Shown: positions 653 through 13,313 of the stretch, piece after piece
Position numbering within the stretch: position 1 is the stretch's first letter
How the letters are laid out: each line of letters begins with the position of its first letter
Origin: an uncultured Alphaproteobacteria bacterium
GTDB taxonomy: Bacteria; Electryoneota; RPQS01
Assembly (NCBI GenBank): GCA_964530625.1
Contig: CAZHAK010000007.1
Location: forward strand, 21,938 to 85,937
Reading direction: 5' to 3'
Length of the DNA stretch: 64,000 nucleotides
Made by a program: the position numbers and the translations under genes
Notes under the pieces: model-generated
The model's input: the letters and a program-made list of their open reading frames with translations, nothing else
What the model was told of the DNA's origin: nothing
Database searches by the model: none

Positions 653-770
653 TATCGAATAGTTGGCTAAGAGCCTAATTTTCAATATATAGCAATGAAA
701 AGCGGGCCTGATACAATGAATCAGACCCGCCAATGTGGGAATGAGAGGACTCTTGTACGGAAATGTTACG

Positions 771-819: not shown

Positions 820-3800
820 CTATTTCAGCAGCAAGAGCTTCTGCATGTGTGTTCCTAATGGAGATTCAAGCCGGGCAAAATAAACTCCCGTCGCAACTCC
901 CGCCGCGTTCCATGTGAAGCGATGCACACCTGCCGTGTAAAGACCGCTTGCTACAGTCGTTACTTCGCGGCCCGTGATGTCAAACACGCGCAGGCTCAAG
1001 TGAGCATTCTGCGGCAGTGAAACCTCCAAGGCCGTCGTCGGATTGAAAGGATTCGGATAAGCCGGTGCCAGCGCGTATTCCAGTGGCAATACGGATGGGT
1101 TCTCCGCATCAAGCTGTACCACATGAATCGTATCCGTCGCGATACTTTCGCCACCTTCGTACATCGCCGTCAGCCAGAAATAGTGTCCCGCGTCTCCGCT
1201 CGGAATACGTGTCCGGAACTCAAGTGCCGTTGTTGAAGCCAGCACGAACTCATTGATATGCACGATGTAACTCGAAAGTTCATCCAAACCACCGACGCTT
1301 TCCGGCGCGTCCCAGCTCATGAACAACGAATCGTTCGTGCGCGTGTATGTTAAATTTTGTGGGGGATCGAGTCGCCAGACTTCCGCGTCCGCCGACGTCG
1401 TCTGGCCCGCTACGACGGTTGCTTCTGCCGTGATAAACTCGTAACCCGGAATCTGCACACGCAACGTGCGCGGCCCGGCAAACACATCTTGTAGTGAGAA
1501 CGAGCCATTCGCAGCAACTTGCCCCATCCTGTTTCCAACTCTCACTCCGTTCGCAATTGCTTCTGAAATTGGCGGATGAGTCGTGATCGTACCGGTAAGA
1601 TTGCCCGTGCTGCGATCCAACGTACGTGTTGTAAACAGGATAGCACTGCCCTGCTGAATTGCAAATGAACTGTCATTTAACACTGTATTGTACTGCAATT
1701 GCAATCCGTATGTTTCAGTAGGACTCTCTATACCAACCGTCCCGCCGATCTGAATGTCCACATTGTCATAGACAAACATGATTTCACAATCACCCGTCGG
1801 CGTAGGCCAGACTTCCTGATCGAAAATGTGAATCTGTGCCGTCAAATGATTTGCCGTAATCGGCACGAAGTAAAGGTGATCGTATTCAATGATGAACACA
1901 CCGTTCGGTTGATCGTAGCGAGTCAGAATGCGGGAATCCACAGGATTCAAGCCGAGCACCAGGTTGTCCCAAAAGAGCGCCAACATTCCCGCCGGACCTT
2001 GTGGCGCAGGAATCGCTGTGTTCGCATTGCGGCGGTCAGGATCTTCGCCCGGAGCCACCCAGCCGTTTTCATTGACCGTGATGGAATCATACGCTCGCCC
2101 GTAAAAAACGAACGGAAACGGCATCTCGACAAACGACGACGCATCTGAAATTTGCGGAAACTCAAGCTCAGTCGCGTTCGTCATGTCTGCCCAATTGTAC
2201 TGGGCGGGCAAACCGTAATCATAGCGATCATAAGCACGGTAGCCGCTGCTGTCCGGCCCAACGCTTTGTGAGCGCGGCGTGGTGAACTGAATCAGAGCTT
2301 CTGTTGTATCGTTCGTCGCAACAAACAAAGTTGTCTCAGCTTGAAGTCCTTGAAACTCTACCACGAAGGAGTAGTTATTCTCACCGGGAAGCACAAAAGA
2401 AAACTCGCCGTTCTCATCTGTTTCCGTCGCTTCCACCGGTACAAACTGCGGAGTAACCGTCGCGAATTGCACTGGAATGGCATTGCCAATCTCAACGGTG
2501 CCCAGAAGAACTCCGCTGGGTACCAAAGACATGGCAATGTCAAGGACAACCGTATCCGAATCAGCTACCGAAAACTCGCTGTTGTATTGAGCGAATCCGA
2601 AAGCGCTGATCGAAAACGGCAAAAGCGAATCTGCAGGCAATGATATCCGGTAGTTTCCTTGAGCGTCGCTGTAGCGAATATAGTTGTCGCCCGCCTGCAC
2701 TCGCGCACCGGCTATCGGTTGACCGTTCGACTGATTGGTAATCTGACCAACCACCCAGCCGCGATCGGCTGATATCATGAGTACCGCTTCATAGGCGTCC
2801 ACCATGCCGCGACCATAGGTATTGTCGTCGCCAGCCGTGCCATAATCAATTGCAGTTTGCATCAGCACGGATTTGATTTCACGCACGTCCGCATTCGGAT
2901 TGGCTTCACGCATCAGAGCAACCACGCCCGCGATGTGCGGACCCGCCATCGAGGTGCCGCTGAAACTACCACTATAACCACCGGGGACGCTCGAGTAGAC
3001 ATTCTCGCCCGGCGCAACAATTTCCGGTTTGATTTGCGTGCCGTCACAGTCGCTCGGGCCACGACTCGAAAAACTTGAGATGGGATGCGGTACAGCCGGG
3101 TAATTTCCCGCATTCACCGACCCCACAGAAAAGAACGTCACTGAGTCAAGCGCAATGTTGGCCGGACTGCGGTGTGTTGCAGCGCCGGGGCCTTCATTAC
3201 CTGCCGAAAACGTCACAACTGTTCCCGCCGTTTCGCAAGCGATAATCGCGGTGTTCCAGTCGTTGAAACAATCGGGATATCCTAAACTACTGTAGACTCC
3301 CCAAGAATTCTGAATCACATCCGGCACGTCTTCAATAGTCTCTGGATTTTCATCCGGATCGGCAAACCACTGATAGCCTTGCAAGACATCACTGGTAAAG
3401 TCGCCGCCAAACCCGCCAATCGCATTCATCGCAATCCACTCCGCACCCGGAGCAACGCCAATGGTATCAAATTGAGAACCATTTCCACCTGTTCCGCAAA
3501 TTGTTCCCATTACGTGCGTACCGTGGCTTTGAGCATCTACGGGCGTTTGCGAGCCACCACCCAAAACGTCCAGCCAACACTCCGAATGCGGCGCGTGATT
3601 GCCGCGCCAACGACTGCCGAGCGCCACATGATTTCCGTCCACACCCGTGTCCATATTAGCTACCAAAACTCCCTCTCCTGTGTAGCCCAGTTCATTCCAG
3701 ACCCGCGGCGCATGCACGGCGTTCACACCCGGAGGACGCGAATCCAACGACTGCCGCTGTTCGCGTTCCGTGCTACGCACAGGTTCGATGAGCTCCATAA

Positions 3801-4221
3801 CAGGCACTGCCTCAACCCAACGCACAGAAGGGTGCTTAATCAATTCCACAAGCACACTGCGTTCACCCTTGACGACTACACAGTTGGTAATCCAATAAGG
3901 AGTAAAACCGTCAATCCTATGACGCTCGCGCAATGCATCCAGATCATTAAGCAACGGTGGTTGTGTGTCACGAGCCACTCGCTGCAGTTCTTCTACGACA
4001 ATCTGATGCCGCTGTTGACGTGTTACTTTCATGTTGCGCAACATGATATCCATTTCGCGCAAATCCACCCGTTCCCACAGATGAAAAATCGCTTTCACCT
4101 TGGCGTCGGGAGCAACTTTGCTCCATTGCTCCTGTAAGTCAGGCGCAATCTCGCCTGCGAGCAGGCTCGTGGCTGAAAATGCTATCAGTAGTGCAGGCAA
4201 CAGCCAGAAAACTCGTTTCAT
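820..4221 (-). CDS. Secreted subtilisin-like serine peptidase (S8) with an N-terminal propeptide-like region, internal beta-sandwich/FN3-like domains and a C-terminal T9SS (Por) sorting domain
   Basis: Signal peptide MKRVFWLLPALLIAFSATSLLA. Catalytic triad motifs: VLVANMDTGVDGNH (Asp), HGTHVMGTICG (His), GTSMAGPHIAGVVALM (Ser). The C-terminus AYPNPFNPTTALEVSLP...GVYFARLESPLGTHMQKLLLLK is a typical type-A T9SS CTD. Confidence 0.85.
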   Translation of the reverse strand: MKRVFWLLPALLIAFSATSLLAGEIAPDLQEQWSKVAPDAKVKAIFHLWERVDLREMDIMLRNMKVTRQQRHQIVVEELQRVARDTQPPLLNDLDALRERHRIDGFTPYWITNCVVVKGERSVLVELIKHPSVRWVEAVPVMELIEPVRSTEREQRQSLDSRPPGVNAVHAPRVWNELGYTGEGVLVANMDTGVDGNHVALGSRWRGNHAPHSECWLDVLGGGSQTPVDAQSHGTHVMGTICGTGGNGSQFDTIGVAPGAEWIAMNAIGGFGGDFTSDVLQGYQWFADPDENPETIEDVPDVIQNSWGVYSSLGYPDCFNDWNTAIIACETAGTVVTFSAGNEGPGAATHRSPANIALDSVTFFSVGSVNAGNYPAVPHPISSFSSRGPSDCDGTQIKPEIVAPGENVYSSVPGGYSGSFSGTSMAGPHIAGVVALMREANPNADVREIKSVLMQTAIDYGTAGDDNTYGRGMVDAYEAVLMISADRGWVVGQITNQSNGQPIAGARVQAGDNYIRYSDAQGNYRISLPADSLLPFSISAFGFAQYNSEFSVADSDTVVLDIAMSLVPSGVLLGTVEIGNAIPVQFATVTPQFVPVEATETDENGEFSFVLPGENNYSFVVEFQGLQAETTLFVATNDTTEALIQFTTPRSQSVGPDSSGYRAYDRYDYGLPAQYNWADMTNATELEFPQISDASSFVEMPFPFVFYGRAYDSITVNENGWVAPGEDPDRRNANTAIPAPQGPAGMLALFWDNLVLGLNPVDSRILTRYDQPNGVFIIEYDHLYFVPITANHLTAQIHIFDQEVWPTPTGDCEIMFVYDNVDIQIGGTVGIESPTETYGLQLQYNTVLNDSSFAIQQGSAILFTTRTLDRSTGNLTGTITTHPPISEAIANGVRVGNRMGQVAANGSFSLQDVFAGPRTLRVQIPGYEFITAEATVVAGQTTSADAEVWRLDPPQNLTYTRTNDSLFMSWDAPESVGGLDELSSYIVHINEFVLASTTALEFRTRIPSGDAGHYFWLTAMYEGGESIATDTIHVVQLDAENPSVLPLEYALAPAYPNPFNPTTALEVSLPQNAHLSLRVFDITGREVTTVASGLYTAGVHRFTWNAAGVATGVYFARLESPLGTHMQKLLLLK

Positions 4222-4266: not shown

Positions 4267-6696
4267 CTATTTGGAGAGAAGGGTAAGTCCGTTATCAAAG
4301 AGAGCTTTTGTCGCGGCGTCCCAGAAACTGTCCGCTTCAAACGCGGACTCCTTTTCATTGTAGCGCCACGACGGAACTCCTGTCGTTTGAATGTCCGTTT
4401 TGCTCAGCAAGTATCCAGCGATAGCCTGCACCAGCGCGTCATCAGGATACTGTTGCAACGCCACGATCGCGTGGTCGAGTGACTCTTCGTGTTTGCCGCT
4501 GAGTTTCGCCCACCAGGCACGGTGCGCTGCGATGCGCCCATTGGCTGGCTTCAACAATTCCGCTTCATCGATCTGTGATTTGGCGGCATCCAGCTCTCCG
4601 GTCAACAACAACAAGCGAGCGTAATCCAATCGCAATCCCACCACACCACTGCGGCGCTTCAGTGCGACCTGATAAACTGAGTCCGCACGTCCGATTTGTC
4701 CGGCCCACAGCAAAGCTTCCGCGTAGCCGCGGAGGGCATCGTCGTCCGTGCTTTGCTCGGCCAATACCAACGTATAATTTACTACGGCTTGCTCAAACAT
4801 GCCACAGGTAAATTGCCATCCCGCAATTTCCCGTATGAGCTGAGTTCTCTCGGAACTGCTTGTTTTTTTTAGCCCTGCTTCGAGTTTGGGCAGCAACTCA
4901 CGATATTTCCCATCTGAGAAGGCTCTTGAACTCGCCCATTGCCCGTACGAGGCCGCCTTATCCGGGTAGGACTGCACCAGCCGCTCGGCGTAGGCCTGTG
5001 ATAAGCTGTCTTGGTCCCTATAAGAGGAAATTCGCGCCAATGCCCGCAAGACCACCTCCGAGTTCGCGTCGCGGGCTTCAGCTTGCCGAGCGAATTCCAT
5101 CGCTTGATCCAGCTTGCCTAACTCCACTTCATTATCCGCCGCATTCACGAAAGCCACAGGATAGCAAGCATCCACGTTAGGAGCAGACATATAATGCTCA
5201 AGCAACTCAACCAACTTCGGGTCGAGTTTGTGCAGCCGCTCTTTCGTGATCTCGCGTGTGTCGTACTCGTTGCGTCGCGGAGAAAAATACGAGTTCATGC
5301 CTTCCGCAAAATACTCCCAGACACTCGATCCCTGATAGCGGCTGACAAAAATTTCTTCATCCGCCGCGTCTTTCGCGCTCGCCTCGCGATAAAGATCCTC
5401 AATCATCGTCCAGTCCTCTGGCGGATACACACCGTGCACCTGATGTGTCAGCTCGTGCAAGACCGTGTTGTACTTGTTGTAAATTGAGCGTTCCACGTCT
5501 TCAATTCCTGTCACGGTCGTATAGCCGCCGCACCCGCGCACGTCATCCCACAATCGCGAGTCATAGCTGATCCGCTGATCAGCGATGGTTTCAAGTCCCG
5601 GACACTCTGAAAGCTTTTCGTGAAGCGGTTTAATATAGTGATGACTGGCGCTGGCCACGAGTACAGGAAGGTAATCCTTCCACGGCTCAACCGAAATCGC
5701 CACTTGCTTCTTGTGCCGGGCTGAAAGCGACTCCCAATTGAGAACATACTTTTCAATCATTGGAATCTCAGGAAACTCTTTGGCGTCGAAGGCCGCCTGA
5801 TCCGCGTCCCGATAGAGATTCTCGCGCAGGCGCAGCTGCTCCAAGCATTTCGCGACGCCGTTATGCGCGCGCCCGTAATCCGGGACATATTTCAGCGCCT
5901 CAAAGAAATGCTCCATTGCGGCACCGTACTCGCCGTGCATCCATTCCTCGGATCCGTCTATCACAAAGTCCCGCGCGCATATTTCGCTTCCGTCGCACTT
6001 CAAGTACTTGTTAGATGACTCAAGTTCCGTGTAGTTCTTTCGCGCGTATCCGTTTCCCAAATAATAATGGCCGTATTCATGGTACTTGTTCCAGCGCAAG
6101 ACCTCTTCAAACAAGTCCATGGACTCACTGGTCTCACCGAGTCGCTGCTTGCAGAGCGCCGCCTGGAAGATCATCTCGTCAGACAGCAATTCCTGCGTCC
6201 ACGCGCGCTCAAGAAGTTCCATCGCGTCTTCGTAGCGCTGCTTCTTCTGAAACACTCGGGCAAGTCCGATGCTGCCCCAGCGTTGCGAAATCGGATCACG
6301 AAACGCCAGCGCTGTCTGAAACATCAGCTCCGCGCGCTCCATGTTAAGCTGCGCGAAGGCAAGCTCGCCTTGTACTATCGCACTCCAGTCGCCTGTCCTG
6401 ACCACCCACTTTTCAAGCGCGGGAAAATTCTCGGTCAATAAGAACCAGGACAATACACTTTCAAAGGCATCGCCGTCGCCACTCAGCTCTTGCAACTCAG
6501 TTAAGCCCGGCTTGAACTCTGCAAAACGATACTCGCGCAGAGCTTTGGCGGAAGCAGCCGCGAAGGATTGCGTCTTGGGCATATTCTTTTCAGAGAACCG
6601 CCACTCCCGAATATCCGCCGCTTTCTTCACCAGCTTCGATTCTGCCAGTACAATCATAGGCAAGACAGCCAACACCAACAGTACATTACGCCACAT
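4267..6696 (-). CDS. Secreted TPR-repeat protein with an embedded HExxH zinc-metallopeptidase-like motif
   Basis: The start was chosen at the internal Met (MWRNVLLVLAVLPMIVLA, a signal peptide) because the ORF's first Met overlaps the upstream gene. Repeated TPR-like helices run throughout. The motif VLHELTHQVHG is followed about 40 aa later by WEYFAEGMNSYF, a possible third zinc ligand Glu. Confidence 0.6.
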   Translation of the reverse strand: MWRNVLLVLAVLPMIVLAESKLVKKAADIREWRFSEKNMPKTQSFAAASAKALREYRFAEFKPGLTELQELSGDGDAFESVLSWFLLTENFPALEKWVVRTGDWSAIVQGELAFAQLNMERAELMFQTALAFRDPISQRWGSIGLARVFQKKQRYEDAMELLERAWTQELLSDEMIFQAALCKQRLGETSESMDLFEEVLRWNKYHEYGHYYLGNGYARKNYTELESSNKYLKCDGSEICARDFVIDGSEEWMHGEYGAAMEHFFEALKYVPDYGRAHNGVAKCLEQLRLRENLYRDADQAAFDAKEFPEIPMIEKYVLNWESLSARHKKQVAISVEPWKDYLPVLVASASHHYIKPLHEKLSECPGLETIADQRISYDSRLWDDVRGCGGYTTVTGIEDVERSIYNKYNTVLHELTHQVHGVYPPEDWTMIEDLYREASAKDAADEEIFVSRYQGSSVWEYFAEGMNSYFSPRRNEYDTREITKERLHKLDPKLVELLEHYMSAPNVDACYPVAFVNAADNEVELGKLDQAMEFARQAEARDANSEVVLRALARISSYRDQDSLSQAYAERLVQSYPDKAASYGQWASSRAFSDGKYRELLPKLEAGLKKTSSSERTQLIREIAGWQFTCGMFEQAVVNYTLVLAEQSTDDDALRGYAEALLWAGQIGRADSVYQVALKRRSGVVGLRLDYARLLLLTGELDAAKSQIDEAELLKPANGRIAAHRAWWAKLSGKHEESLDHAIVALQQYPDDALVQAIAGYLLSKTDIQTTGVPSWRYNEKESAFEADSFWDAATKALFDNGLTLLSK

Positions 6697-7378
6697 GTTT
6701 ATCCTCCGCGATTCTGCCGTCAACCATCGTCACAATTCGCCTGGCGATACTCATCACCTTCGGGTCGTGAGTGGAAAAAACAAAAGTCGTTTCGTGTGTG
6801 CGATTCATTTCAAGCATCAATTCCAGCACGGCCATTCCCGTGTCATGATCTAAATTCGCTGTAGGCTCGTCGGCCAAAACCAGATTCGGATTGGTGATCA
6901 GCGCTCGCGCCACGGCTACACGCTGGCGTTGCCCGCCTGAAAGTTCATCGGGACGATGATGCCCGTACTCCGACAGTCCAACCTCTTCAACTAAGTCGTT
7001 GACTCGCCTGTCAATCTCGGCTTTTGGCACGCGCTGTAGTTCAAGCGGCAAACCGACATTCTCTTTAACATTAAACACCGGCAGCAAATTGAAACTCTGA
7101 AAAATAAAACCAATGCGGTCACGTCTGAGCAGCGTCGTTTCTTTGTCATTCAGTTCAGCCGGATCGTACTCGCCGAACATGGTCACCTTACCCGACGTCG
7201 GTACATCCAGGCAGCCGATCATATTCAACAGCGTCGTCTTGCCGCTGCCCGACGGCCCGACGATACACAAAAATTCACCCGCACCCACGCGCAGGCCAAC
7301 GTCCACCAAGGCATGAACGATGTGCGCGCCAAGTTGATAGTCTTTGCAAATCTTTTCGGTCACAATAATGTCTGGCAT
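6686..7378 (-). CDS. ABC transporter ATP-binding protein (LolD/MacB-type ATPase)
   Basis: Walker A GPSGSGKTTLLNMIG. ABC signature LSGGQRQRVAVARAL. Walker B LVLADEPT. Confidence 0.85.
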   Translation of the reverse strand: MPDIIVTEKICKDYQLGAHIVHALVDVGLRVGAGEFLCIVGPSGSGKTTLLNMIGCLDVPTSGKVTMFGEYDPAELNDKETTLLRRDRIGFIFQSFNLLPVFNVKENVGLPLELQRVPKAEIDRRVNDLVEEVGLSEYGHHRPDELSGGQRQRVAVARALITNPNLVLADEPTANLDHDTGMAVLELMLEMNRTHETTFVFSTHDPKVMSIARRIVTMVDGRIAEDKHVA

Positions 7379-7386
7379 ATAAAACT

Positions 7387-8604
7387 TTAGAAGTAAATGA
7401 CGAACCGCAAATCCGTTGCGTAGTATGCGGGCAATACGGGCAACTCACTTGAGGGCGAGCCAGCCGCGAAAGAGAAGCCTGCGGAAATATCCACGTCAGG
7501 ATAGCCCATGAACGTAATCAAGGGATATCCGTACAACGTTTGATCTGCCGGCTCAAAGATAAGATTTCCCCCGACTGTCCAAAGATTTCGCCAATTGTAA
7601 ACTCCGCTTGTGGCGACGTACCACTGATGAAGCTCTTGCGTGGGTCTTGTCAATAGCAGCAAATTCGCGTAGTCAACGATTGCCGCCGGATTCGGTTGTC
7701 TGGTGCGGAGCTCGTTCGCGTCGCTCTTAAACCTTGCAAGATAGTCCGCAAACTCAGAATCATCGAGCCCCCAACCGGTGTAATAAATCTCTGCATACAC
7801 GCTGGAATTGCCGAATAGCTTGCTGCCGCCCAGCACCGCGCGCGGTATCCATGTTCTGTTCTGCTCAAGCACCATATAGTGACGAAGCGTCGAATTCTCC
7901 ATTGCAAGCCACGCCCCTTCGCCATAGACCACCAGCGGCCCGGCGTCCCACGAAAATGCGCCCGCGATATTCGTCTCATCGTCAAAGTTGTGTGTCGCCG
8001 TCGCGTAAAGATCAACGGTTCCCACAAGTTTGAACAATCGTGCTCCCGCCATTCTGCGCGTGCCGTCCAGCGTCGGAATCTCAATCAGGTCATCGCCGCG
8101 ATCCGGTGAATAGAGCAACGACATCGAGAACCACGGCAACGTCGCGTCCATTCTTGCTAGATAAACTCCTTCAAGGTAGCGCGTCGGATCAAGCGGATTC
8201 GCGTTGCGCTGCAAATTGTCCGATGGAGTATAGGTCAATCCCGTACCCCAGCGCGCGCGCTGTTTGCCCATCAGGAATGTCACTCGATGCGACGGATTCA
8301 AATAGCCATAACCCTGATCCAACACCCAATCAAAATTCTCTGCTGAATCCGGCTGATGCACAAACTGAAAACGCGGTTCAATCCGGTATCCGGCCCGCCG
8401 CTGATGCGATCCCTTTACGGATACGCGCAACTCATGCAAATAATTCTCGCGCCAAGTTCCTGTCGCAGGCGGGTAAAGCCACACCGCTCCCCGATCTGGC
8501 CCGGTGAAGACAGCATTGTTCTCCAGTCGAAACGTGGTCTGCGGTTGCGCAAACGCAATCGAGAACAAAAGAAAGAAACTACTTGCCCAAGCGAGTCGGA
8601 TCAA
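7387..8604 (-). CDS. Outer-membrane beta-barrel protein of unknown function
   Basis: Signal peptide MIRLAWASSFFLLFSIAFAQ. The sequence is rich in alternating aromatic and polar stretches, and the C-terminus ends ...LRFVIYF (aromatic terminus typical of outer-membrane barrels). It is embedded in the ABC/LolA-like cluster. Confidence 0.5.
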   Translation of the reverse strand: MIRLAWASSFFLLFSIAFAQPQTTFRLENNAVFTGPDRGAVWLYPPATGTWRENYLHELRVSVKGSHQRRAGYRIEPRFQFVHQPDSAENFDWVLDQGYGYLNPSHRVTFLMGKQRARWGTGLTYTPSDNLQRNANPLDPTRYLEGVYLARMDATLPWFSMSLLYSPDRGDDLIEIPTLDGTRRMAGARLFKLVGTVDLYATATHNFDDETNIAGAFSWDAGPLVVYGEGAWLAMENSTLRHYMVLEQNRTWIPRAVLGGSKLFGNSSVYAEIYYTGWGLDDSEFADYLARFKSDANELRTRQPNPAAIVDYANLLLLTRPTQELHQWYVATSGVYNWRNLWTVGGNLIFEPADQTLYGYPLITFMGYPDVDISAGFSFAAGSPSSELPVLPAYYATDLRFVIYF

Positions 8605-9319
8605 AAGTGGACTCCGGAACTCCGTCGCGCTCTTTCAGCGACACAATTGTTACTCTGGTGTAAGCGCCCTCTTCCAAGAAATCATACATCGTCATAACCG
8701 AAGGCCGCTCCCGCCCCGCCAAGATTGCCGTTTCGTCGATGACTTCCTGCTTCAGCGCCTTACCCGTCAATCCGTAAAACGTGATCGTGTCGGGAATCGC
8801 GGACGCGCTGTCCAAACCGCACTCCATTTTTGCGTAGGCCACGCTGCGTGTCTTGGCGGTCAGTTCCACAAAATAATGAACGCGACCGTCGCGGACGGTG
8901 CGTTCGACGACCTTTGCCCAGTAGTCATCGGCAAGCGTCGAGTTCATCACGTCTTCATTCGAAAACACACTCCCCATGAAGCTGGCTTTGCGCGTAAGCT
9001 TCACAGGCCGCGAAACGTCCGGCACATAAAACCATAAATTATCGCCGTTCAACAAAATTTGTTTGTCGCGCTCGCGCGGTGGGTCGGTCACGGTCATCAG
9101 AGATTTGTCTTCACCGACACCGACAATATCATATGTATAATGAAGCAAGTCGCGGCCCGGGCGGCTCGTTTCCATTTGAATCGTCATTTCGTATGCGCCC
9201 GGAAAGCGCGCGTCGTCCAATCGCTGCAACAGAGCTTGCGCGACAGAATCACTCGCCTCCTGTGCACGGGCAATCGTTGAAACAACGATCAGAACACCAA
9301 CAAGCAGAGATCTAAACAT
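8579..9319 (-). CDS. Outer-membrane lipoprotein-sorting protein (LolA-like fold)
   Basis: Signal peptide MFRSLLVGVLIVVSTIARA. Size, composition and placement next to FtsX-type permeases match LolA-like periplasmic partners of MacB/Lol-type ABC systems. Confidence 0.55.
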   Translation of the reverse strand: MFRSLLVGVLIVVSTIARAQEASDSVAQALLQRLDDARFPGAYEMTIQMETSRPGRDLLHYTYDIVGVGEDKSLMTVTDPPRERDKQILLNGDNLWFYVPDVSRPVKLTRKASFMGSVFSNEDVMNSTLADDYWAKVVERTVRDGRVHYFVELTAKTRSVAYAKMECGLDSASAIPDTITFYGLTGKALKQEVIDETAILAGRERPSVMTMYDFLEEGAYTRVTIVSLKERDGVPESTFDPTRLGK

Positions 9320-10570
9320 CTATCTAACTCCTTTTGCAAGCGCAGCCGTAACGGGAACTCTCGACGCACGACGCGCCGGCAACACGGATCCCGCCCACGA
9401 GCTGAAAATGGCAAGCGCCGCCCCAATCAGCCAATCAACGGCCCGCGACTGAGCAAAGTACGTGTCCGCTAACGGCATCGAAATCGCTTCAATTGCCTCT
9501 TTCGGCAGGCTGATGCCGTGCACGTTCATGAACCACGCAAAAAGGCCCCCGATTACCGAACCAATCACAATGCCAAAAAATCCCACCGTGATGCCTTCAG
9601 CCAAGAACATTGTACGGATTTGCTTCTTCTCCATTCCCAGTGCGCGCAAAGCTCCTATTTCACCCGTGCGTTCAAACACCGAGACGGTCATCGTATTCGA
9701 AATGCCAAACACTGCAAGTGTCACGAGAATCCAGCCGATGATAGCATAAGAGACCATGTCAGCTTTCACCGCCGCCACAATGTCGCGTGCGACTTCGTAC
9801 CACGTTTCCACAATAAGTTTGTCGCTCGTCGCGCGTGTCACAACTGCCGCCACTTCATCGCGAACACTTGGCACGACGCGCAGGTTCGTGGTGCGAATAA
9901 CAATCTCGGTGACCTCGTCCCGCATGTCAAGCAGCTCCGAGACAAACGGCAAGGGAGCGTAGACCGCTCCTCTGTCCGCGATGCCAAAACCGCTGTCAAA
10001 AATCCCAATTACTTCCGCATCCACCAGATTGTTCGCGCGATCCTGAGTCTGCGCAAACAACAAGAGTGAGCTGCCTACTTCCGCGCCGAGCAGTTCCGCC
10101 AACCGATCACCGATCAGGATGCCATTCGTCAAATCACTAAGCCTGCTGCCTTCCTTAACTCCGGAAAGAATCACGCCGACCTTTTCCTCTGCCGACGGAA
10201 CGACGCCATAGAGCACGACTGTAGCGCGTTCACGTCCATTCGACAAAATCGCGGACGTCAAAATCCTCGGACTCGAGGCAATGACATCAGGCAATGTGTC
10301 CGTGGCAAGTGTGACTGCGCTGGCGTTATGAATCGTCAGGTCAAGCGGCAGCCTGCGCTTCTCGTCTGCGTAACCATCCGCGTGAATCTGAATGTGTCCG
10401 GTGCGCAAATCCACGGTCTTCTCAATCGTGATCAAGTAGAAACCGCGCAGCACACCGATCAGCAGAATCAACATGCCTGTATTGACACCAAGCGCCAGCA
10501 CATTGAACAGCGAGCGCCGCCGTTGTTTCATGACATTGCGAAAACCCAGTCTAAACCAGAGCAAGTTCAT
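9320..10570 (-). CDS. ABC transporter permease, FtsX/MacB-like
   Basis: The start was set at the internal Met (MNLLWFRLGFRNVMKQRRRS), which abuts the stop of the upstream permease at 10567. It has an N-terminal TM helix, a large periplasmic domain and a C-terminal FtsX-type 3-TM bundle. Confidence 0.75.
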   Translation of the reverse strand: MNLLWFRLGFRNVMKQRRRSLFNVLALGVNTGMLILLIGVLRGFYLITIEKTVDLRTGHIQIHADGYADEKRRLPLDLTIHNASAVTLATDTLPDVIASSPRILTSAILSNGRERATVVLYGVVPSAEEKVGVILSGVKEGSRLSDLTNGILIGDRLAELLGAEVGSSLLLFAQTQDRANNLVDAEVIGIFDSGFGIADRGAVYAPLPFVSELLDMRDEVTEIVIRTTNLRVVPSVRDEVAAVVTRATSDKLIVETWYEVARDIVAAVKADMVSYAIIGWILVTLAVFGISNTMTVSVFERTGEIGALRALGMEKKQIRTMFLAEGITVGFFGIVIGSVIGGLFAWFMNVHGISLPKEAIEAISMPLADTYFAQSRAVDWLIGAALAIFSSWAGSVLPARRASRVPVTAALAKGVR

Positions 10571-11784
10571 CCCAGCTCCCGCAATATTTCCACGGGCTGT
10601 TTCTTGGATGCCCAGTAGGCAGGATACAGAGACGCGAAAATCGAAATCAACATTCCCAGCAACGCAATCTTGATCGTTGTTTCCGGAACAAAGGTAAACC
10701 AAATTAAGCTGTCAATGCCTTCAAGTCCCTGCATCGCTTCACCCAAATCAATCGGGTGCGCGTAAAAGTAAAACGTGATCGGCAGCGAAAAAATCAATCC
10801 GACTATCGTGCCGATCAAGCCCAGCACCGCGCCTTGAAAGAGCACAATCTTGATCAACTGCCTCGGCAATAGCCCCACCGCTCGCAATGTCCCGAATTCG
10901 CGCAGCCGTTCGAGCACGCTAATCAAGAATGTATTGATCATACCAAGCGAAGCAACAACCAAGATGATCAACGTGATAACCCAAATTCCAATTTCAGAGA
11001 CATCAAGCAATTGAATCAGCGCCGCCTGATCTTCTTTCCAGGACGTTACCTGATAGCGGTCGGCAAACTGCGACTTCACAACGGGCAAGACGTCATCAAG
11101 AGCTTCAAGAGACTCAAGTTCGAGCGTTACACTCGTCACTCGGTTTTCCAGCGCAACCAAACGCTGCACGGTGTTAAGCTCGCCAATTACAAGCGTCGCA
11201 TCTTCATCTTCATTCAAGCTGCGAAAGATACCGCGGACAACCGGTTCGACTGCTGACATCCCGCCATACACGTCGCTCGTCAGGAGAATAATCTTCTCAC
11301 CTGCTTTGACGTCCAAAAGCTTTGCGGCGTTACTTCCGAGCATGACTTGATTCGACCCGTCCAAAAACTCGCCGTCAATCATCGCTCGCTCAAGCCTTCC
11401 CCAAATCGCTCGGGCAGCCTCTGGCGTCGTTGCGTTCAGCTGCATTTCGAGCGTGCGATCCGGTGAATTTGCCAGCGCGCCGAATCGAATCATCGGTCGC
11501 ACCATACGAACCTTTGAAAGAGTGCTTAGGGACTCTTCGAGAGCTTTCGTCCACGGCATATTCGGCTCGAGCGGCAGGAGATCAATCTTCTTGTCATAAC
11601 CCTGCGCCGCAAGACGAATATGCCCTGATTCGCGGACGGCCTGCTGTTGTACCTTGTCGCGAAATCCGTCCACGTAACTTCCGCCGAATTGCAACAGAAA
11701 AACCGACACAGCCACGACAGCGATCACAGCCAGCGAACGCTTCCACATCTTTCTTATGTCGCGCATCGCGAAGCGAGTCAGCAT
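10567..11784 (-). CDS. ABC transporter permease, FtsX/LolC/E-like
   Basis: MLTRFAMRDIRKMWKRSLAVIAVVAVSVFLL opens the protein. It has a periplasmic domain followed by an FtsX 4-TM architecture, and is paralogous to the adjacent permease. Confidence 0.75.
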   Translation of the reverse strand: MLTRFAMRDIRKMWKRSLAVIAVVAVSVFLLQFGGSYVDGFRDKVQQQAVRESGHIRLAAQGYDKKIDLLPLEPNMPWTKALEESLSTLSKVRMVRPMIRFGALANSPDRTLEMQLNATTPEAARAIWGRLERAMIDGEFLDGSNQVMLGSNAAKLLDVKAGEKIILLTSDVYGGMSAVEPVVRGIFRSLNEDEDATLVIGELNTVQRLVALENRVTSVTLELESLEALDDVLPVVKSQFADRYQVTSWKEDQAALIQLLDVSEIGIWVITLIILVVASLGMINTFLISVLERLREFGTLRAVGLLPRQLIKIVLFQGAVLGLIGTIVGLIFSLPITFYFYAHPIDLGEAMQGLEGIDSLIWFTFVPETTIKIALLGMLISIFASLYPAYWASKKQPVEILRELG

Positions 11785-13313
11785 CAGAACGATTTCTTCA
11801 CAGAGTAAAGACGATACGGAGAGCGCAGCAGAATAGGATTCGCCAGAACTCCCAAGTCTTGCTTCAAGCTCTTGTCGTTCCAGTCCGCATTACGTTCATC
11901 GACAAGAATATGAGTACAGCGGTACTTTGAAAGCAGCAACCAGCGATCCGCCGTTTCCAGAGGATCATTAAAAAAGCTGGTGGCGTCCGCGCGGCGCTGA
12001 TTCACTTCTTCTTGAATCAATGGATTCCCTTTTGCCTGCGCCACAAGGCGCGCACCTGTGACCGCTGGCACACGCCAACCGACCGTATCCTCCACCATTA
12101 CGATGGAGGACTTATCCAATCTGTTCCGAAGGATATTCAAATCCTGCCACGGCTCAAGAATATCGCCGCTGGTTCTTTTATAATGCACGATGACCGGCGA
12201 CCATTGCTTAACGATTTTGTGGGCACGATAGTAAATTCCCGGTATAAACACCGCCATGACGAGGAATAACACTATCAGGACATGTGTTTTGGATCGCTGA
12301 AAGAAGCCGCGTGTAAACAACCCGCTGTCCCAGAGGAACAACCCGATACACATATGCGCGAAAATTGCTCCGTAAAATATAAATCTGCTGCCGATTTGCA
12401 CACCCGCTAGCCAGCTTAACAGATAGATTGCCAATGAACAACCGAGCGCAATGACCAACTCCGGATACTTTCTGCGCACAGCGAAAAAAGCCGCGATCGG
12501 TAATCCAAGCAGGACGGGGCCAATCTTCATCACTTGCCCGTCAAACAATCGAACTTTGTACCACGCTTCGGTTGAACCTCGAAACAAGAGCGTTGAATAG
12601 TCGAAATACGGCCACCACAACGATACAAGCAGCACTCCGACAGGAACAAGCTGCAAGAGCAGGGTTTTGCCAATGCTCACCCGAGCGACGGCCCACCCGA
12701 AGGCTGCCACAAACAAGAACAGCGCGGTTATCGGATGCGAGAGAAAGGCCAACAGCGACAACGCGATGTAGCCCGTCAATCGAGCTCGCGACCCGCTGAC
12801 TAAGTAGTGATTGAGCTCCGCGAGCCCGTGAAAGCATATACCGTAGGCAAAAGTTCCGACAAGACCTGGTAACGCGAAGAAGAACTCAGCCTGATATGCG
12901 TTCGCTTCGCCGTACCCTCGACCCCATCCAATGAGCATCACCGGAACAATCCACAGTATCGCGCGCGAATCAGTCGTCAGCGTCCTTATCACTCGTGCAA
13001 GCCCGGTAACAAACAAGAGTATATTGAGCAGGCCGGCAATCGCTACCGTCGTAAAGAGCGGGAGGTCAAACAGGCGGTCAATCACACCCCATACTATAGT
13101 GTACGGCGTGAATCTCGGCGAAGTTTCGCCCGGCAAATCGAGTAGCGGGTTGCGTGGATTCAGCGGCGAGTCTGATGCGGCTTCTATTGTTGCTGCCGTT
13201 TCCCAAATGTCCGCTTCCTCGCCCCAACGCGGCGCAATTGTATAAAGAAGCGCGACCACAAGGATCGCGCCATACATAAAGCGCTGCCACGGCGCCGACT
13301 TTAGCCGATTCAT
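11784..13313 (-). CDS. Polytopic integral membrane protein, probable GT-C-fold glycosyltransferase (ArnT/PMT-like)
   Basis: About 12 predicted TM helices across 509 aa. Its start codon overlaps the stop of the GT2 gene, a genomic pairing typical of a polyprenyl-phosphate-sugar synthase plus GT-C transferase. Confidence 0.45.
   Translation of the reverse strand: MNRLKSAPWQRFMYGAILVVALLYTIAPRWGEEADIWETAATIEAASDSPLNPRNPLLDLPGETSPRFTPYTIVWGVIDRLFDLPLFTTVAIAGLLNILLFVTGLARVIRTLTTDSRAILWIVPVMLIGWGRGYGEANAYQAEFFFALPGLVGTFAYGICFHGLAELNHYLVSGSRARLTGYIALSLLAFLSHPITALFLFVAAFGWAVARVSIGKTLLLQLVPVGVLLVSLWWPYFDYSTLLFRGSTEAWYKVRLFDGQVMKIGPVLLGLPIAAFFAVRRKYPELVIALGCSLAIYLLSWLAGVQIGSRFIFYGAIFAHMCIGLFLWDSGLFTRGFFQRSKTHVLIVLFLVMAVFIPGIYYRAHKIVKQWSPVIVHYKRTSGDILEPWQDLNILRNRLDKSSIVMVEDTVGWRVPAVTGARLVAQAKGNPLIQEEVNQRRADATSFFNDPLETADRWLLLSKYRCTHILVDERNADWNDKSLKQDLGVLANPILLRSPYRLYSVKKSF

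What the first reader, a model, noticed from the sequence alone, without database searches (positions are those of the whole stretch)
4267..6696. Secreted TPR-scaffold protein carrying a gluzincin-like HExxH...E module
About 800 aa of TPR-like repeats flank a segment reading NTVLHELTHQVHG...WEYFAEGMNSYF, the spacing expected for a zinc metallopeptidase (HExxH plus a downstream Glu). The gene sits between the T9SS subtilase and the Lol-like ABC cluster, and may share a transcript with them. A TPR-embedded putative peptidase is unusual. It may be a substrate-recruiting protease or a non-catalytic relic.
Basis: seen in the sequence. Interest (0 to 1): 0.5.

Follow-up and report, generated by a model that had tools for sequence, protein, structure and literature searches.

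The report
TPR-flanked lethal-factor-like zinc peptidase
The gene encodes an exported protein in which an apparently intact zinc protease domain, a distant relative of anthrax lethal factor and the clostridial Pro-Pro endopeptidases, sits between two arms of TPR repeats; databases label this family only as "TPR repeat protein", and its gene neighbours elsewhere point to peptide breakdown for uptake.

Summary
Window 4267-6696 (- strand) is one 809-aa gene with a signal peptide, two TPR arms and HELTH…WEYFAE in between.

All catalytic positions are present:
- Zinc ligands H414, H418 and E461.
- General base E415.
- Oxyanion tyrosine Y454, seven residues before E461.

These are invariant in 50 close homologues. 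In 84 distant homologues all are invariant except E415, which is V in one.

The domain is the most conserved part of the protein (about 62% identity against about 32% for the arms). A non-catalytic relic is therefore very unlikely.

The link to the Lol-like ABC cluster is local: 3 of 80 related loci have it. The S8 subtilase neighbour is kept only in the five closest species.

Across the family, recurring neighbours are OPT oligopeptide transporters, isoaspartyl peptidases and gamma-glutamyl transpeptidase. One lineage has a prolyl-oligopeptidase fusion between a TonB receptor and a PTR2 transporter.

Best reading: an exported, probably periplasmic, peptide-processing metallopeptidase. It is a new TPR-embedded variant of the M34 kind.

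The parts
4267..6696 (-). Whole gene, 809 aa plus stop codon: TPR-flanked M34/ATLF-like metallopeptidase
   Evidence: ORF and translation; an identical 809-aa gene product is on record on 19 contigs; the full-length AF2 model has pLDDT 90.8 and pTM 0.88
6702..6707 (-). Shine-Dalgarno-like GGAGGA, 5 nt upstream of the ATG at 6696
   Evidence: Read directly from the sequence
6640..6696 (-). Signal peptide, aa 1-19 (MWRNVLLVLAVLPMIVLAE); likely cleavage after VLA; no lipobox
   Evidence: Sequence; hydrophobic N-termini ending in small residues in most homologues. Inferred from the sequence pattern; no predictor was run
5782..6633 (-). N-terminal TPR/helical-repeat arm, aa 22-305. Includes the invariant signature HYxLGNGYARxNY (aa 210-222) and YGRAH (aa 274-278)
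   Evidence: Pfam TPR/ANAPC3 hits; helices in the AF2 model; invariant columns
5182..5781 (-). M34/ATLF-like zincin catalytic domain, aa 306-505
5521..5580 (-). S-loop-like segment DQRISYDSRLWDDVRGCGGY (aa 373-392). Aligns to the PPEP substrate-closing S-loop and S1/S1' residues: Y378~Tyr113, W383~Trp120, V386~Val123 of PPEP-3
   Evidence: HMMER alignment combined with residue roles from PMC12828418. This is the lowest-confidence part of the models (pLDDT 49-68), as expected for a mobile loop. D379 and R381 are invariant in all 85 aligned sequences
5443..5457 (-). HELTH: zinc ligands H414 and H418, general base E415. The family signature continues as HExxHQVH (H421)
   Evidence: aligned to HEFAH of PPEP-3
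5302..5337 (-). YQGSSVWEYFAE: oxyanion Tyr Y454; third zinc ligand E461 (Y-x6-E as in PPEP-3 Tyr190/Glu197); helper E465
   Evidence: Y454 and E461 are invariant in all 85 aligned sequences; E465 is Q in most distant homologues
4405..5175 (-). C-terminal TPR arm, aa 508-764. Absent from most of the more distant 500-700-aa relatives
   Evidence: Pfam TPR_19 and TPR_14; AF2 helices; 60 of 84 distant homologues end within 60 aa after the domain
4270..4404 (-). C-terminal tail, aa 765-809, with a beta-hairpin (776-789) and the conserved motif PxW.Y...Y/F...W; role unknown; not a T9SS sorting domain
   Evidence: AF2 secondary structure; consensus and C-termini; no Por_Secre_tail hit
6686..7378 (-). 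ABC ATPase gene. Its 3' end overlaps the start of the peptidase gene by 11 nt, so co-transcription in this lineage is likely
   Evidence: The adjacency is found in only 3 of 80 related loci
820..4221 (-). Downstream S8 subtilase with CarboxypepD_reg repeats and a T9SS C-terminal domain, 45 nt after the peptidase gene; probably the same transcript
   Evidence: Kept downstream in the five closest species only. No terminator-like site lies between the genes
701..731 (-). Terminator-like hairpin (12-pair stem plus T-run) after the S8 gene; likely end of the transcript
   Evidence: a consensus scan only

Best explanation
The gene encodes a Sec-exported, most likely periplasmic, zinc metalloendopeptidase. 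Its catalytic domain (aa 306-505) is a divergent member of the anthrax-lethal-factor / Pro-Pro-endopeptidase fold (MEROPS M34, Pfam ATLF), inserted between two TPR arms.

Proposed mechanism, by analogy with PPEPs:
- H414, H418 and E461 hold the zinc.
- E415 activates the water.
- Y454 stabilises the tetrahedral intermediate.
- A mobile loop (aa 373-392, RLWDDVRGxGG) closes over an extended peptide lying against the edge strand.
- The TPR arms pack against the domain and restrict or recruit substrates to unfolded or short peptides.

Proposed role: breaking down imported or periplasmic oligopeptides, possibly proline-containing ones, into pieces that inner-membrane peptide transporters can take up.

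Shown here: gene structure, fold, conservation of catalytic residues, and neighbourhood statistics. Inferred: metal binding, activity, location, role of the TPR arms, substrate.
For: Fold:
- The domain model has pLDDT 88 and pTM 0.87.
- The top 11 Foldseek hits are all PPEPs, followed by lethal factor.

Sequence:
- The domain profile finds only PPEP-1 and PPEP-3 (deposited as 'ATLF-like domain-containing protein') chains in the PDB (17 of 17 hits, E about 0.01). The alignment spans WDDVxGxGG, HExxH and EYFAE.
- Pfam ATLF is the best non-TPR hit (E 0.0026).
- Distant homologues of the domain (phmmer E 1e-16 to 1e-35) hit Pfam ATLF in 40 of 68 cases, best 2.4e-12.

Active site:
- The alignment maps Y454 and E461 onto PPEP-3 Tyr190 and Glu197, and HELTH onto His153/Glu154/His157. 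The roles of those residues come from crystal structures (PMC12828418).
- H414, H418, Y454, E461, D379 and R381 are invariant in all 85 aligned sequences; E415 is present in 84 of 85. All are also invariant in 50 close homologues.
- The domain is 62-65% identical across the family, against 32-38% for the arms.

Export:
- Signal peptides occur across the family, and there is no T9SS domain.

Role:
- OPT oligopeptide transporters lie in 10 of 80 related loci, mostly directly upstream on the same strand and with divergent OPT sequences.
- Asparaginase_2 (isoaspartyl peptidase family) lies in 8 of 80 and gamma-glutamyl transpeptidase in 3 of 80.
- Neighbouring T9SS-type proteases include S8, C25 and M6.
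- A fusion with an S9 prolyl oligopeptidase occurs as three full-length copies on record from different sources. It lies between a TonB-dependent receptor and a PTR2 peptide transporter.
- The full-length model has pTM 0.88, which implies a defined packing of arms and domain.
Against: - The window protein itself does not reach Pfam's ATLF gathering score (17.9 against 27.4 bits). Direct sequence E-values to solved M34 structures are only about 0.01.
- Model coordinates could not be read, so the metal-site geometry and the position of the TPR arms relative to the cleft were not checked.
- The beta-sheet looks smaller than in PPEPs: 2-3 strands in DSSP.
- M34 enzymes carry Asp where this family has the invariant H421, and some PPEP specificity residues differ (Pro110 to I376, Leu150 to T411, Arg111 to S377).
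- Peptide-transport or peptide-catabolism neighbours (OPT, Asparaginase_2, GGT) occur in at most about a quarter of loci, and several of those loci are related to each other. Burkholderiales and second-tier contexts are uninformative.
- In this window the immediate neighbours are a Lol-like ABC system and a secreted subtilase, not a peptide transporter.
Confidence: 0.7

Rival explanations
1. Envelope quality-control or assembly protease in the manner of BepA. The TPR arms dock on an envelope machine, and the peptidase degrades or processes stalled outer-membrane proteins or lipoproteins handled by the adjacent LolCDE-like / LolA-like ABC system.
For: - The protein is exported and combines TPR repeats with a metalloprotease, the same logic as BepA (my own knowledge).
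- The gene start overlaps the ABC ATPase gene by 11 nt.
- The cluster holds two LolC/E-like permeases and a LolA_like protein.
- The same arrangement is kept in three related genomes.
Against: - The ABC cluster is present in only 3 of 80 related loci.
- Sister genomes at 68% and 47% identity (L009, L010) have GT2 - peptidase - S8 with no ABC cluster, so the cluster looks like an insertion or deletion next to the gene.
- There is no M48 signature.
- Family-wide neighbours are peptide transporters and peptidases, not envelope-assembly genes.
Confidence: 0.12
2. Dedicated maturation or processing protease for the downstream T9SS subtilase, or for T9SS cargo in general, for example removing a pro-peptide in the periplasm before or during secretion.
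For: - The S8 subtilase follows after 45 nt with no terminator-like site in between.
- It is kept downstream in the five closest species.
- Proteins with a T9SS C-terminal domain or FlgD_ig domain lie within 3 kb in 17 of 80 loci, including a C25 and an M6 peptidase.
Against: - The family is present in Burkholderiales (Roseateles, Paucibacter, Pelomonas), where the one locus inspected (Paucibacter) shows no such neighbour and which, to my knowledge, lack T9SS.
- The partner protein differs from locus to locus.
- T9SS cargo genes are abundant in these phyla, so adjacency is weak evidence (no background rate was computed).
Confidence: 0.1
3. Non-catalytic relic: a TPR scaffold that keeps a dead zincin domain as a binding module.
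For: - The window protein is below Pfam's ATLF threshold.
Against: - Every catalytic position is invariant across about 135 homologues, apart from one distant sequence with V at E415.
- The domain is the most conserved part of the protein.
- The non-catalytic LF-like domains score lower than the active PPEPs.
Confidence: 0.04
4. Exported toxin or effector protease acting on another organism's proteins, as anthrax lethal factor does.
For: Fold relationship to lethal factor; signal peptide.
Against: - No delivery module, toxin partner or secretion-system signal was seen.
- It is a single-copy, chromosomal, syntenic gene in environmental, presumably free-living bacteria.
- Its neighbours are metabolic.
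Confidence: 0.03

Closest known systems
Pro-Pro endopeptidases PPEP-1 (Zmp1, C. difficile), PPEP-2 and PPEP-3 (MEROPS M34; PDB 5A0P, 6FPC, 9G0J)
   Same: - They are the only PDB sequence hits of the domain profile.
- They share HExxH on the active-site helix, an oxyanion Tyr seven residues before the Glu ligand (Y-x6-E-Y/F-F-A-E), the WDDVxGxGG segment with the S1 Trp and S1' Val, and a mobile loop before the edge strand.
- They are exported enzymes.
   Different: - PPEPs are ~200-aa proteins, some with added cell-wall anchor domains, and are reported only from Firmicutes (PMC8610288).
- This protein is 809 aa, has its domain inserted between two TPR arms, and occurs in Gram-negative phyla.
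- Sequence identity is 16-19%.
- H421 replaces the M34 Asp after the motif, and several specificity residues differ.
- Pro-Pro specificity is untested.
Anthrax lethal factor catalytic domain (M34; Pfam PF07737 ATLF)
   Different: Lethal factor is a four-domain toxin delivered by protective antigen into host cells. Here there is no toxin context, and the Pfam gathering score is not met (17.9 against 27.4 bits).
MtfA (Mlc titration factor A; MEROPS M90; PDB 3DL1)
   Different: MtfA is cytoplasmic, has no TPR arms, and scores lower than the PPEPs.
BepA / YfgC (M48 metalloprotease with a C-terminal TPR domain; E. coli periplasm) - from my own knowledge
   Same: Works alike in outline: a Sec-exported HExxH zinc protease joined to TPR repeats that are thought to dock partners or substrates in the envelope.
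   Different: The catalytic family is different: no M48 hit. BepA has one C-terminal TPR domain, whereas here the catalytic domain is inserted between two arms. No solved structure resembles the full-length model beyond plain TPR arrays (TM 0.29 or less).
Substrate-import-associated zinc metallohydrolase lipoproteins (NCBIfam TIGR04549, Pfam Peptidase_Mx1; PDB 4L7A)
   Different: The similarity is far weaker than to M34. Those are lipoproteins without TPR arms.

Membership tests
Gluzincins (clan MA(E): HExxH plus a downstream Glu ligand) | HExxH motif on a helix, with a third-ligand Glu on a following helix | tested here: met
   HELTH at aa 414-418 lies in helix 411-421, and E461 lies in helix 459-470. 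Both are invariant.
MEROPS M34 / Pfam ATLF (PF07737) | Score at or above Pfam's gathering threshold (27.4 bits) | tested here: not met
   17.9 bits, E 0.0026, aa 354-475 against model positions 51-174 of 193. However, 40 of 68 distant homologues of the domain match ATLF at E <= 1e-3, and some are above threshold (P0181 at 45.2 bits).
MEROPS M34 / Pfam ATLF (PF07737) | LF/PPEP-type zincin fold | tested here: met
   [not shown]
MEROPS M34 / Pfam ATLF (PF07737) | Catalytic Tyr seven residues before the Glu ligand (Y-x6-E-x-F-A-E) | tested here: met
   Y454-x6-E461-Y-F-A-E465 aligns to Tyr190/Glu197 of PPEP-3. Y454 and E461 are invariant in all 85 aligned sequences.
MEROPS M34 / Pfam ATLF (PF07737) | Zinc binding and peptide-bond hydrolysis | not testable with these tools
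   Needs a purified protein.
Pro-Pro endopeptidases (EC 3.4.24.89) | Cleavage between two prolines | not testable with these tools
   Only indirect hints: partial conservation of S1/S1' residues (W383, V386, Y378) and a natural fusion with a prolyl oligopeptidase.
Pro-Pro endopeptidases (EC 3.4.24.89) | S-loop with an aromatic (Trp103/Tyr113) and a basic (Lys101/Arg111) residue that close over the substrate | tested here: inconclusive
   Y378 aligns with Tyr113 and is at least 90% conserved. Arg111 aligns with S377, although the invariant R375 and R381 are nearby. The segment has low pLDDT, as expected for a mobile loop. The alignment in this loop is weak.
Pro-Pro endopeptidases (EC 3.4.24.89) | Diverting loop that forces a double-kinked substrate path | not tested
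   Would need superposition of coordinates, which were not available.
Pro-Pro endopeptidases (EC 3.4.24.89) | Small secreted Firmicutes protein of about 200 aa, at most with cell-wall anchor domains | tested here: not met
   809 aa with two TPR arms. Carriers are Eisenbacteria, KSB1/Calditrichota-like MAGs, Marinimicrobia, Cloacimonetes, Gemmatimonadota and Burkholderiales (PMC8610288).
BepA-like M48 + TPR proteases | Peptidase_M48 catalytic domain | tested here: not met
   No M48 hit at E <= 1 in Pfam or NCBIfam, and no M48 structure among the top fold matches.
T9SS cargo proteins | C-terminal Por_Secre_tail sorting domain | tested here: not met
   No hit at E <= 1. The C-terminus is a 45-aa hairpin plus helix. 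The neighbouring S8 gene does have the domain.

The most novel reading that the evidence does not exclude
The TPR-M34-TPR proteins, together with their shorter TPR-M34 relatives, form a previously unrecognised family-level branch of the lethal-factor/PPEP peptidases in Gram-negative and candidate phyla. In this branch the TPR arms cage the active site, making a periplasmic oligopeptidase with proline-directed specificity. The enzyme would link the output of secreted proteases (T9SS S8, C25, M6) or TonB-dependent peptide import to OPT/PTR2 uptake. That would be a new step in bacterial peptide foraging and a new source of Pro-specific proteases.
Probability: 0.3. Interest if true: 0.6.

Novelty: new variant of a known kind. 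Interest (0 to 1): 0.45.

Why it matters
- M34 peptidases are known as a Firmicutes family: the anthrax lethal factor toxin and the Pro-Pro endopeptidases that release cells from surfaces.
- This work finds a related catalytic domain in at least 196 of about 185,000 species genomes scanned, from quite different phyla. The domain is always fused to TPR repeats, and where the sources give a name it is almost always just "tetratricopeptide repeat protein".
- That widens the reach of the fold and flags a systematic annotation gap.
- If the enzymes are active, they are candidates for unusual, possibly proline-directed, specificities. Such enzymes are useful as tools for proteomics and for cleavable linkers.
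- They would also be a missing periplasmic step between secreted proteases and peptide transporters in poorly known environmental bacteria.
- Cultivable carriers (Roseateles, Paucibacter, Pelomonas) make this directly testable.

Tried and rejected
- A profile built from the alignment with full-length homologues, searched against PDB sequences, returned only TPR proteins. I rebuilt a domain-only alignment, which gave the PPEP hits.
- Foldseek of the full-length model against the PDB gave only TPR arrays (TM 0.29 or less). No solved structure shares the overall architecture.
- The AlphaFold-database fold library was not available. Model coordinates are not exposed to scripts, so metal-site distances and arm-to-cleft geometry could not be measured.
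- Literature searches found no description of this family: PPEP plus tetratricopeptide, ATLF-like, PF07737, and M34 plus tetratricopeptide.
- The Lol-like ABC cluster as a functional partner was rejected as a family trait. It is present in 3 of 80 loci and absent from L009 and L010.
- A second HExxH at aa 206-210 is not a metal motif. Its first His is present in only 17 of 30 homologues, and it lies in a TPR-type 'NP..E.AHY.LG' turn.
- Neighbourhoods of two shorter, distant relatives (P0181, P0175) were uninformative.
- WLM/SprT-like, M90 and Peptidase_Mx1 hits are short local matches around the motif and much weaker than M34 in the fold comparison.
- Rfam found nothing in the window. The source organism could not be named; the identical protein carries no name in any source.
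Full report
**1. The observation**

The ORF list shows one long reading frame on the minus strand, 4267..6723. The likely start is the ATG at 6696, five bases after a GGAGGA. This gives 809 aa, the same product that public gene calls give on 19 contigs.

The translation contains the two quoted strings...YNTVLHELTHQVHG... and ...SSVWEYFAEGMNSYF.... I verified the coordinates: HELTH is window 5443-5457 and YQGSSVWEYFAE is window 5302-5337.

Pfam finds significant TPR repeats on both sides (TPR_19 at 8e-15, TPR_14 at 4e-8). The N-terminus (MWRNVLLVLAVLPMIVLA/ESK) reads as a Sec signal peptide with no lipobox, as in most homologues.

- Downstream, after 45 nt, lies an S8 subtilase with CarboxypepD_reg repeats and a T9SS sorting domain.
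- Upstream, overlapping the start by 11 nt, lies an ABC ATPase. It is preceded by an unknown 405-aa protein, a LolA_like protein and two LolC/E-like permeases.

One wording needs correction. 809 aa is the whole protein, and the helical-repeat arms make up about 540 aa of it.

**2. What the HExxH segment is**

Two AlphaFold2 models were made from alignments of homologues. The full-length model has pLDDT 90.8 and pTM 0.88. The model of aa 285-510 has pLDDT 88 and pTM 0.87.

Both show TPR-type helix pairs at aa 22-305 and 508-764. Between them lies a distinct alpha/beta domain with strands at 352-356 and 393-397, the HELTH helix at 411-421 and the EYFAE helix at 459-470. So the motif is not part of a TPR helix.

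Fold comparison of the domain model:
- Foldseek agrees. Its top 11 hits are all PPEP-1, -2 or -3 structures, followed by lethal factor.

Sequence evidence points the same way:
- A profile of the domain alone hits only PPEP-1 chains and PPEP-3 chains (deposited as 'ATLF-like domain-containing protein') among all PDB sequences. All 17 hits are of this kind, at E about 0.01.
- Pfam ATLF is the best non-TPR hit for the window protein, although below threshold (17.9 against 27.4 bits).
- An exhaustive search of 1.84 billion representative proteins with the domain found 356 clusters.
- The more distant ones (31-39% identity, E 1e-16 to 1e-35) hit Pfam ATLF in 40 of 68 cases, best 2.4e-12, and some lie above the gathering score.

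Homology to the M34/ATLF fold therefore rests on three independent lines.

**3. Is the active site intact?**

The PPEP-3 structure paper (PMC12828418) assigns these roles:
- His153 and His157: zinc ligands.
- Glu154: general base.
- Tyr190: oxyanion tyrosine.
- Glu197: third zinc ligand.
- Pro110, Tyr113 and Trp120: S1 pocket.
- Val123, His145 and Leu150: S1' contacts.

I checked that chain index plus 5 reproduces all these residue numbers in the HMMER alignment. In that alignment:
- H414, E415 and H418 match the HExxH motif.
- Y454 matches Tyr190 and E461 matches Glu197, giving the same Y-x6-E-Y-F-A-E pattern.
- W383 matches Trp120, V386 matches Val123 and Y378 matches Tyr113.
- Differences are I376 for Pro110, S377 for Arg111, Y406 for His145 and T411 for Leu150.

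Conservation:
- In 50 close homologues, H414, E415, H418, H421, Y454, E461 and E465 are invariant, as is the RLWDDVRGxGG segment.
- In an alignment of the window domain with 84 distant homologues (85 sequences), H414, H418, Y454, E461, D379 and R381 are invariant and E415 is present in 84 of 85.
- E465 becomes Q in most distant members, and H421 is H in 72 of 85.
- The domain is 62-65% identical across the family, against 32-38% for the arms and about 20% for the termini.

The two least confident stretches of the models are aa 371-390 and 451-460. These correspond to the elements that move on substrate binding in PPEPs, namely the S-loop and the Tyr-bearing helix.

A dead relic is therefore very unlikely. 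Metal binding and catalysis remain inferred.

**4. The family and its contexts**

The word-indexed search found 639 relatives. The top 120 are mostly 800-950 aa with the same TPR-domain-TPR layout and are almost all named "tetratricopeptide repeat protein".

A scan of one genome per species found relatives in 196 species. They include:
- Candidatus Eisenbacteria
- KSB1 and Calditrichota-labelled MAGs
- Cloacimonetes
- Marinimicrobia
- Gemmatimonadota
- Burkholderiales (Roseateles, Paucibacter, Pelomonas, Rubrivivax)
- Rhodocyclaceae

A second tier of 500-700-aa proteins has an N-terminal TPR arm with the domain at the C-terminus.

I compared 80 loci with 10-kb flanks.

The Lol-like ABC cluster of the window occurs next to the gene in only three loci (L008, L011, L021). 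Two sister genomes, at 68% and 47% identity, have GT2 - peptidase - S8 with no ABC cluster. The cluster is therefore a local insertion or deletion, not a partner of the family. The S8 subtilase is kept downstream in the five closest species only.

De novo clustering of the flanking ORFs, followed by Pfam scans, gave these recurring neighbours:
- OPT oligopeptide transporters in 10 of 80 loci. Most lie directly upstream on the same strand. They fall in at least two groups whose OPTs are only 25-31% identical to each other.
- Asparaginase_2 (isoaspartyl peptidase family) in 8 of 80.
- Gamma-glutamyl transpeptidase in 3 of 80.
- Proteins sharing T9SS-type C-terminal domains within 3 kb in 17 of 80, among them a C25 and an M6 peptidase.

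One lineage fuses an S9 prolyl oligopeptidase to the N-terminus of the whole TPR-M34-TPR unit:
- Full-length copies of 1584-1614 aa are on record from different sources, one of them an NCBI Steroidobacteraceae MAG.
- That gene sits between a TonB-dependent receptor and a PTR2 peptide transporter.

Contexts in Paucibacter and in two second-tier proteins were uninformative.

**5. How it most likely works**

Shown:
- An exported protein.
- A catalytic domain of the LF/PPEP fold with every catalytic residue conserved.
- Two flanking TPR arms that the model places in a defined arrangement (pTM 0.88).

Inferred:
- Zinc is held by H414, H418 and E461. E415 activates water and Y454 stabilises the intermediate.
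- The 373-392 loop closes over a peptide bound in extended form.
- The arms, together with the invariant arm motifs HYxLGNGYARxNY (210-222), YGRAH (274-278) and RRxGVVELRLDYAR (about 681-694), shape or gate access to the cleft.
- With a signal peptide, no lipobox and no T9SS domain, the location is most likely the periplasm.

The neighbourhood pattern and the prolyl-oligopeptidase fusion point to breakdown of oligopeptides ahead of uptake. Retained PPEP-like S1/S1' residues make a preference for proline near the cleaved bond possible but unproven. I put it at roughly one in four.

In this window the gene is probably transcribed with the ABC cluster and the subtilase. Supporting this are the 11-nt overlap, the 45-nt gap, and a single strong terminator-like hairpin at 701-731 after the S8 gene. 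That arrangement is specific to this lineage.

**6. Rivals**

- BepA-like envelope quality-control role with the Lol-like system. It fits the local operon but not the family-wide data.
- Dedicated processing protease for the T9SS subtilase. It fits the five closest species. The partner protein changes between loci, and the family extends to Burkholderiales, which to my knowledge lack T9SS; the one Burkholderiales locus inspected showed no such neighbour.
- Non-catalytic relic, contradicted by conservation.
- Toxin, for which there is no supporting context.

**7. Comparison with what is known**

The domain works like, and is homologous to, M34 peptidases. Membership in Pfam ATLF by the curated threshold is not met for this protein, although it is met for some distant relatives.

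It is not a PPEP in the defined sense:
- The architecture and taxa differ (PMC8610288).
- Some specificity residues differ.
- The activity is untested.

It is not M48/BepA. No solved structure shares the full architecture, and the paper library holds no description of a TPR-embedded M34-like peptidase.

I rate it a new variant of a known kind. It is of moderate interest because it extends a family known from Firmicutes toxins and adhesin-releasing enzymes to environmental Gram-negative phyla, exposes an annotation gap, and can be tested in cultivable Roseateles or Paucibacter.

Noticed in passing
window 6031-6081 (-), aa 206-222: A second HExxH (HEYGH, aa 206-210) sits in the N-terminal TPR arm. 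Its first His is present in only 17 of 30 homologues, so it is not a metal motif. It opens a strikingly invariant signature, HYxLGNGYARxNY (Y211, L213, G214, N215, G216 and Y222 are invariant), whose role is unknown; it may line the catalytic cleft.
   Followed up: partly
window 6686-13313 (-): An ABC cluster: ATPase, an unknown 405-aa protein (7387-8604), LolA_like, two LolC/E-like permeases (below NCBIfam cut-offs), and an unknown 509-aa protein (11784-13313). Relative to sister genomes L009 and L010, it lies as a block between the GT2 gene and the peptidase gene. The two unknown proteins have no Pfam or NCBIfam match.
   Followed up: partly
L088 3400-12202: A natural fusion of an S9 prolyl oligopeptidase with the whole TPR-M34-TPR unit (1584 aa; also NCBI HEY1891489.1, Steroidobacteraceae MAG). 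It is flanked by a TonB-dependent receptor and a PTR2/POT peptide transporter, and looks like a compact peptide-utilisation locus.
   Followed up: partly
window 820-4221 (-) and 701-731 (-): A large S8 subtilase (1133 aa) with CarboxypepD_reg repeats and a T9SS sorting domain, followed by a 12-pair terminator-like hairpin. In the longer source contigs, two Peptidase_S74-domain proteins follow it (L001 16248-20000). They would begin near window position ~450 and run off the window's start.
   Followed up: no
window 4270-4404 (-), aa 765-809: A conserved C-terminal tail (PxW.Y...Y/F...W; predicted beta-hairpin 776-789 plus a short helix) is present across the 800-950-aa family. It is not a T9SS domain, and its function is unknown. 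It could be a plug or a docking element.
   Followed up: no
L009, L012, L013, L015, L017, L019, L022 (record titles): Several MAG records holding close homologues are titled 'uncultured Alphaproteobacteria bacterium'. One of them (L009) carries the same T9SS-type S8 neighbour and synteny as the Calditrichota-labelled MAG L008. The taxonomic labels of these records look unreliable.
   Followed up: no
window 1-64000: No Rfam family reaches its gathering score anywhere in the 64-kb window, so the window itself holds no rRNA or tRNA-type marker for naming the organism. The closest named relatives of the gene are MAGs labelled Calditrichaeota (59% identity) and unclassified 'bacterium'.
   Followed up: no
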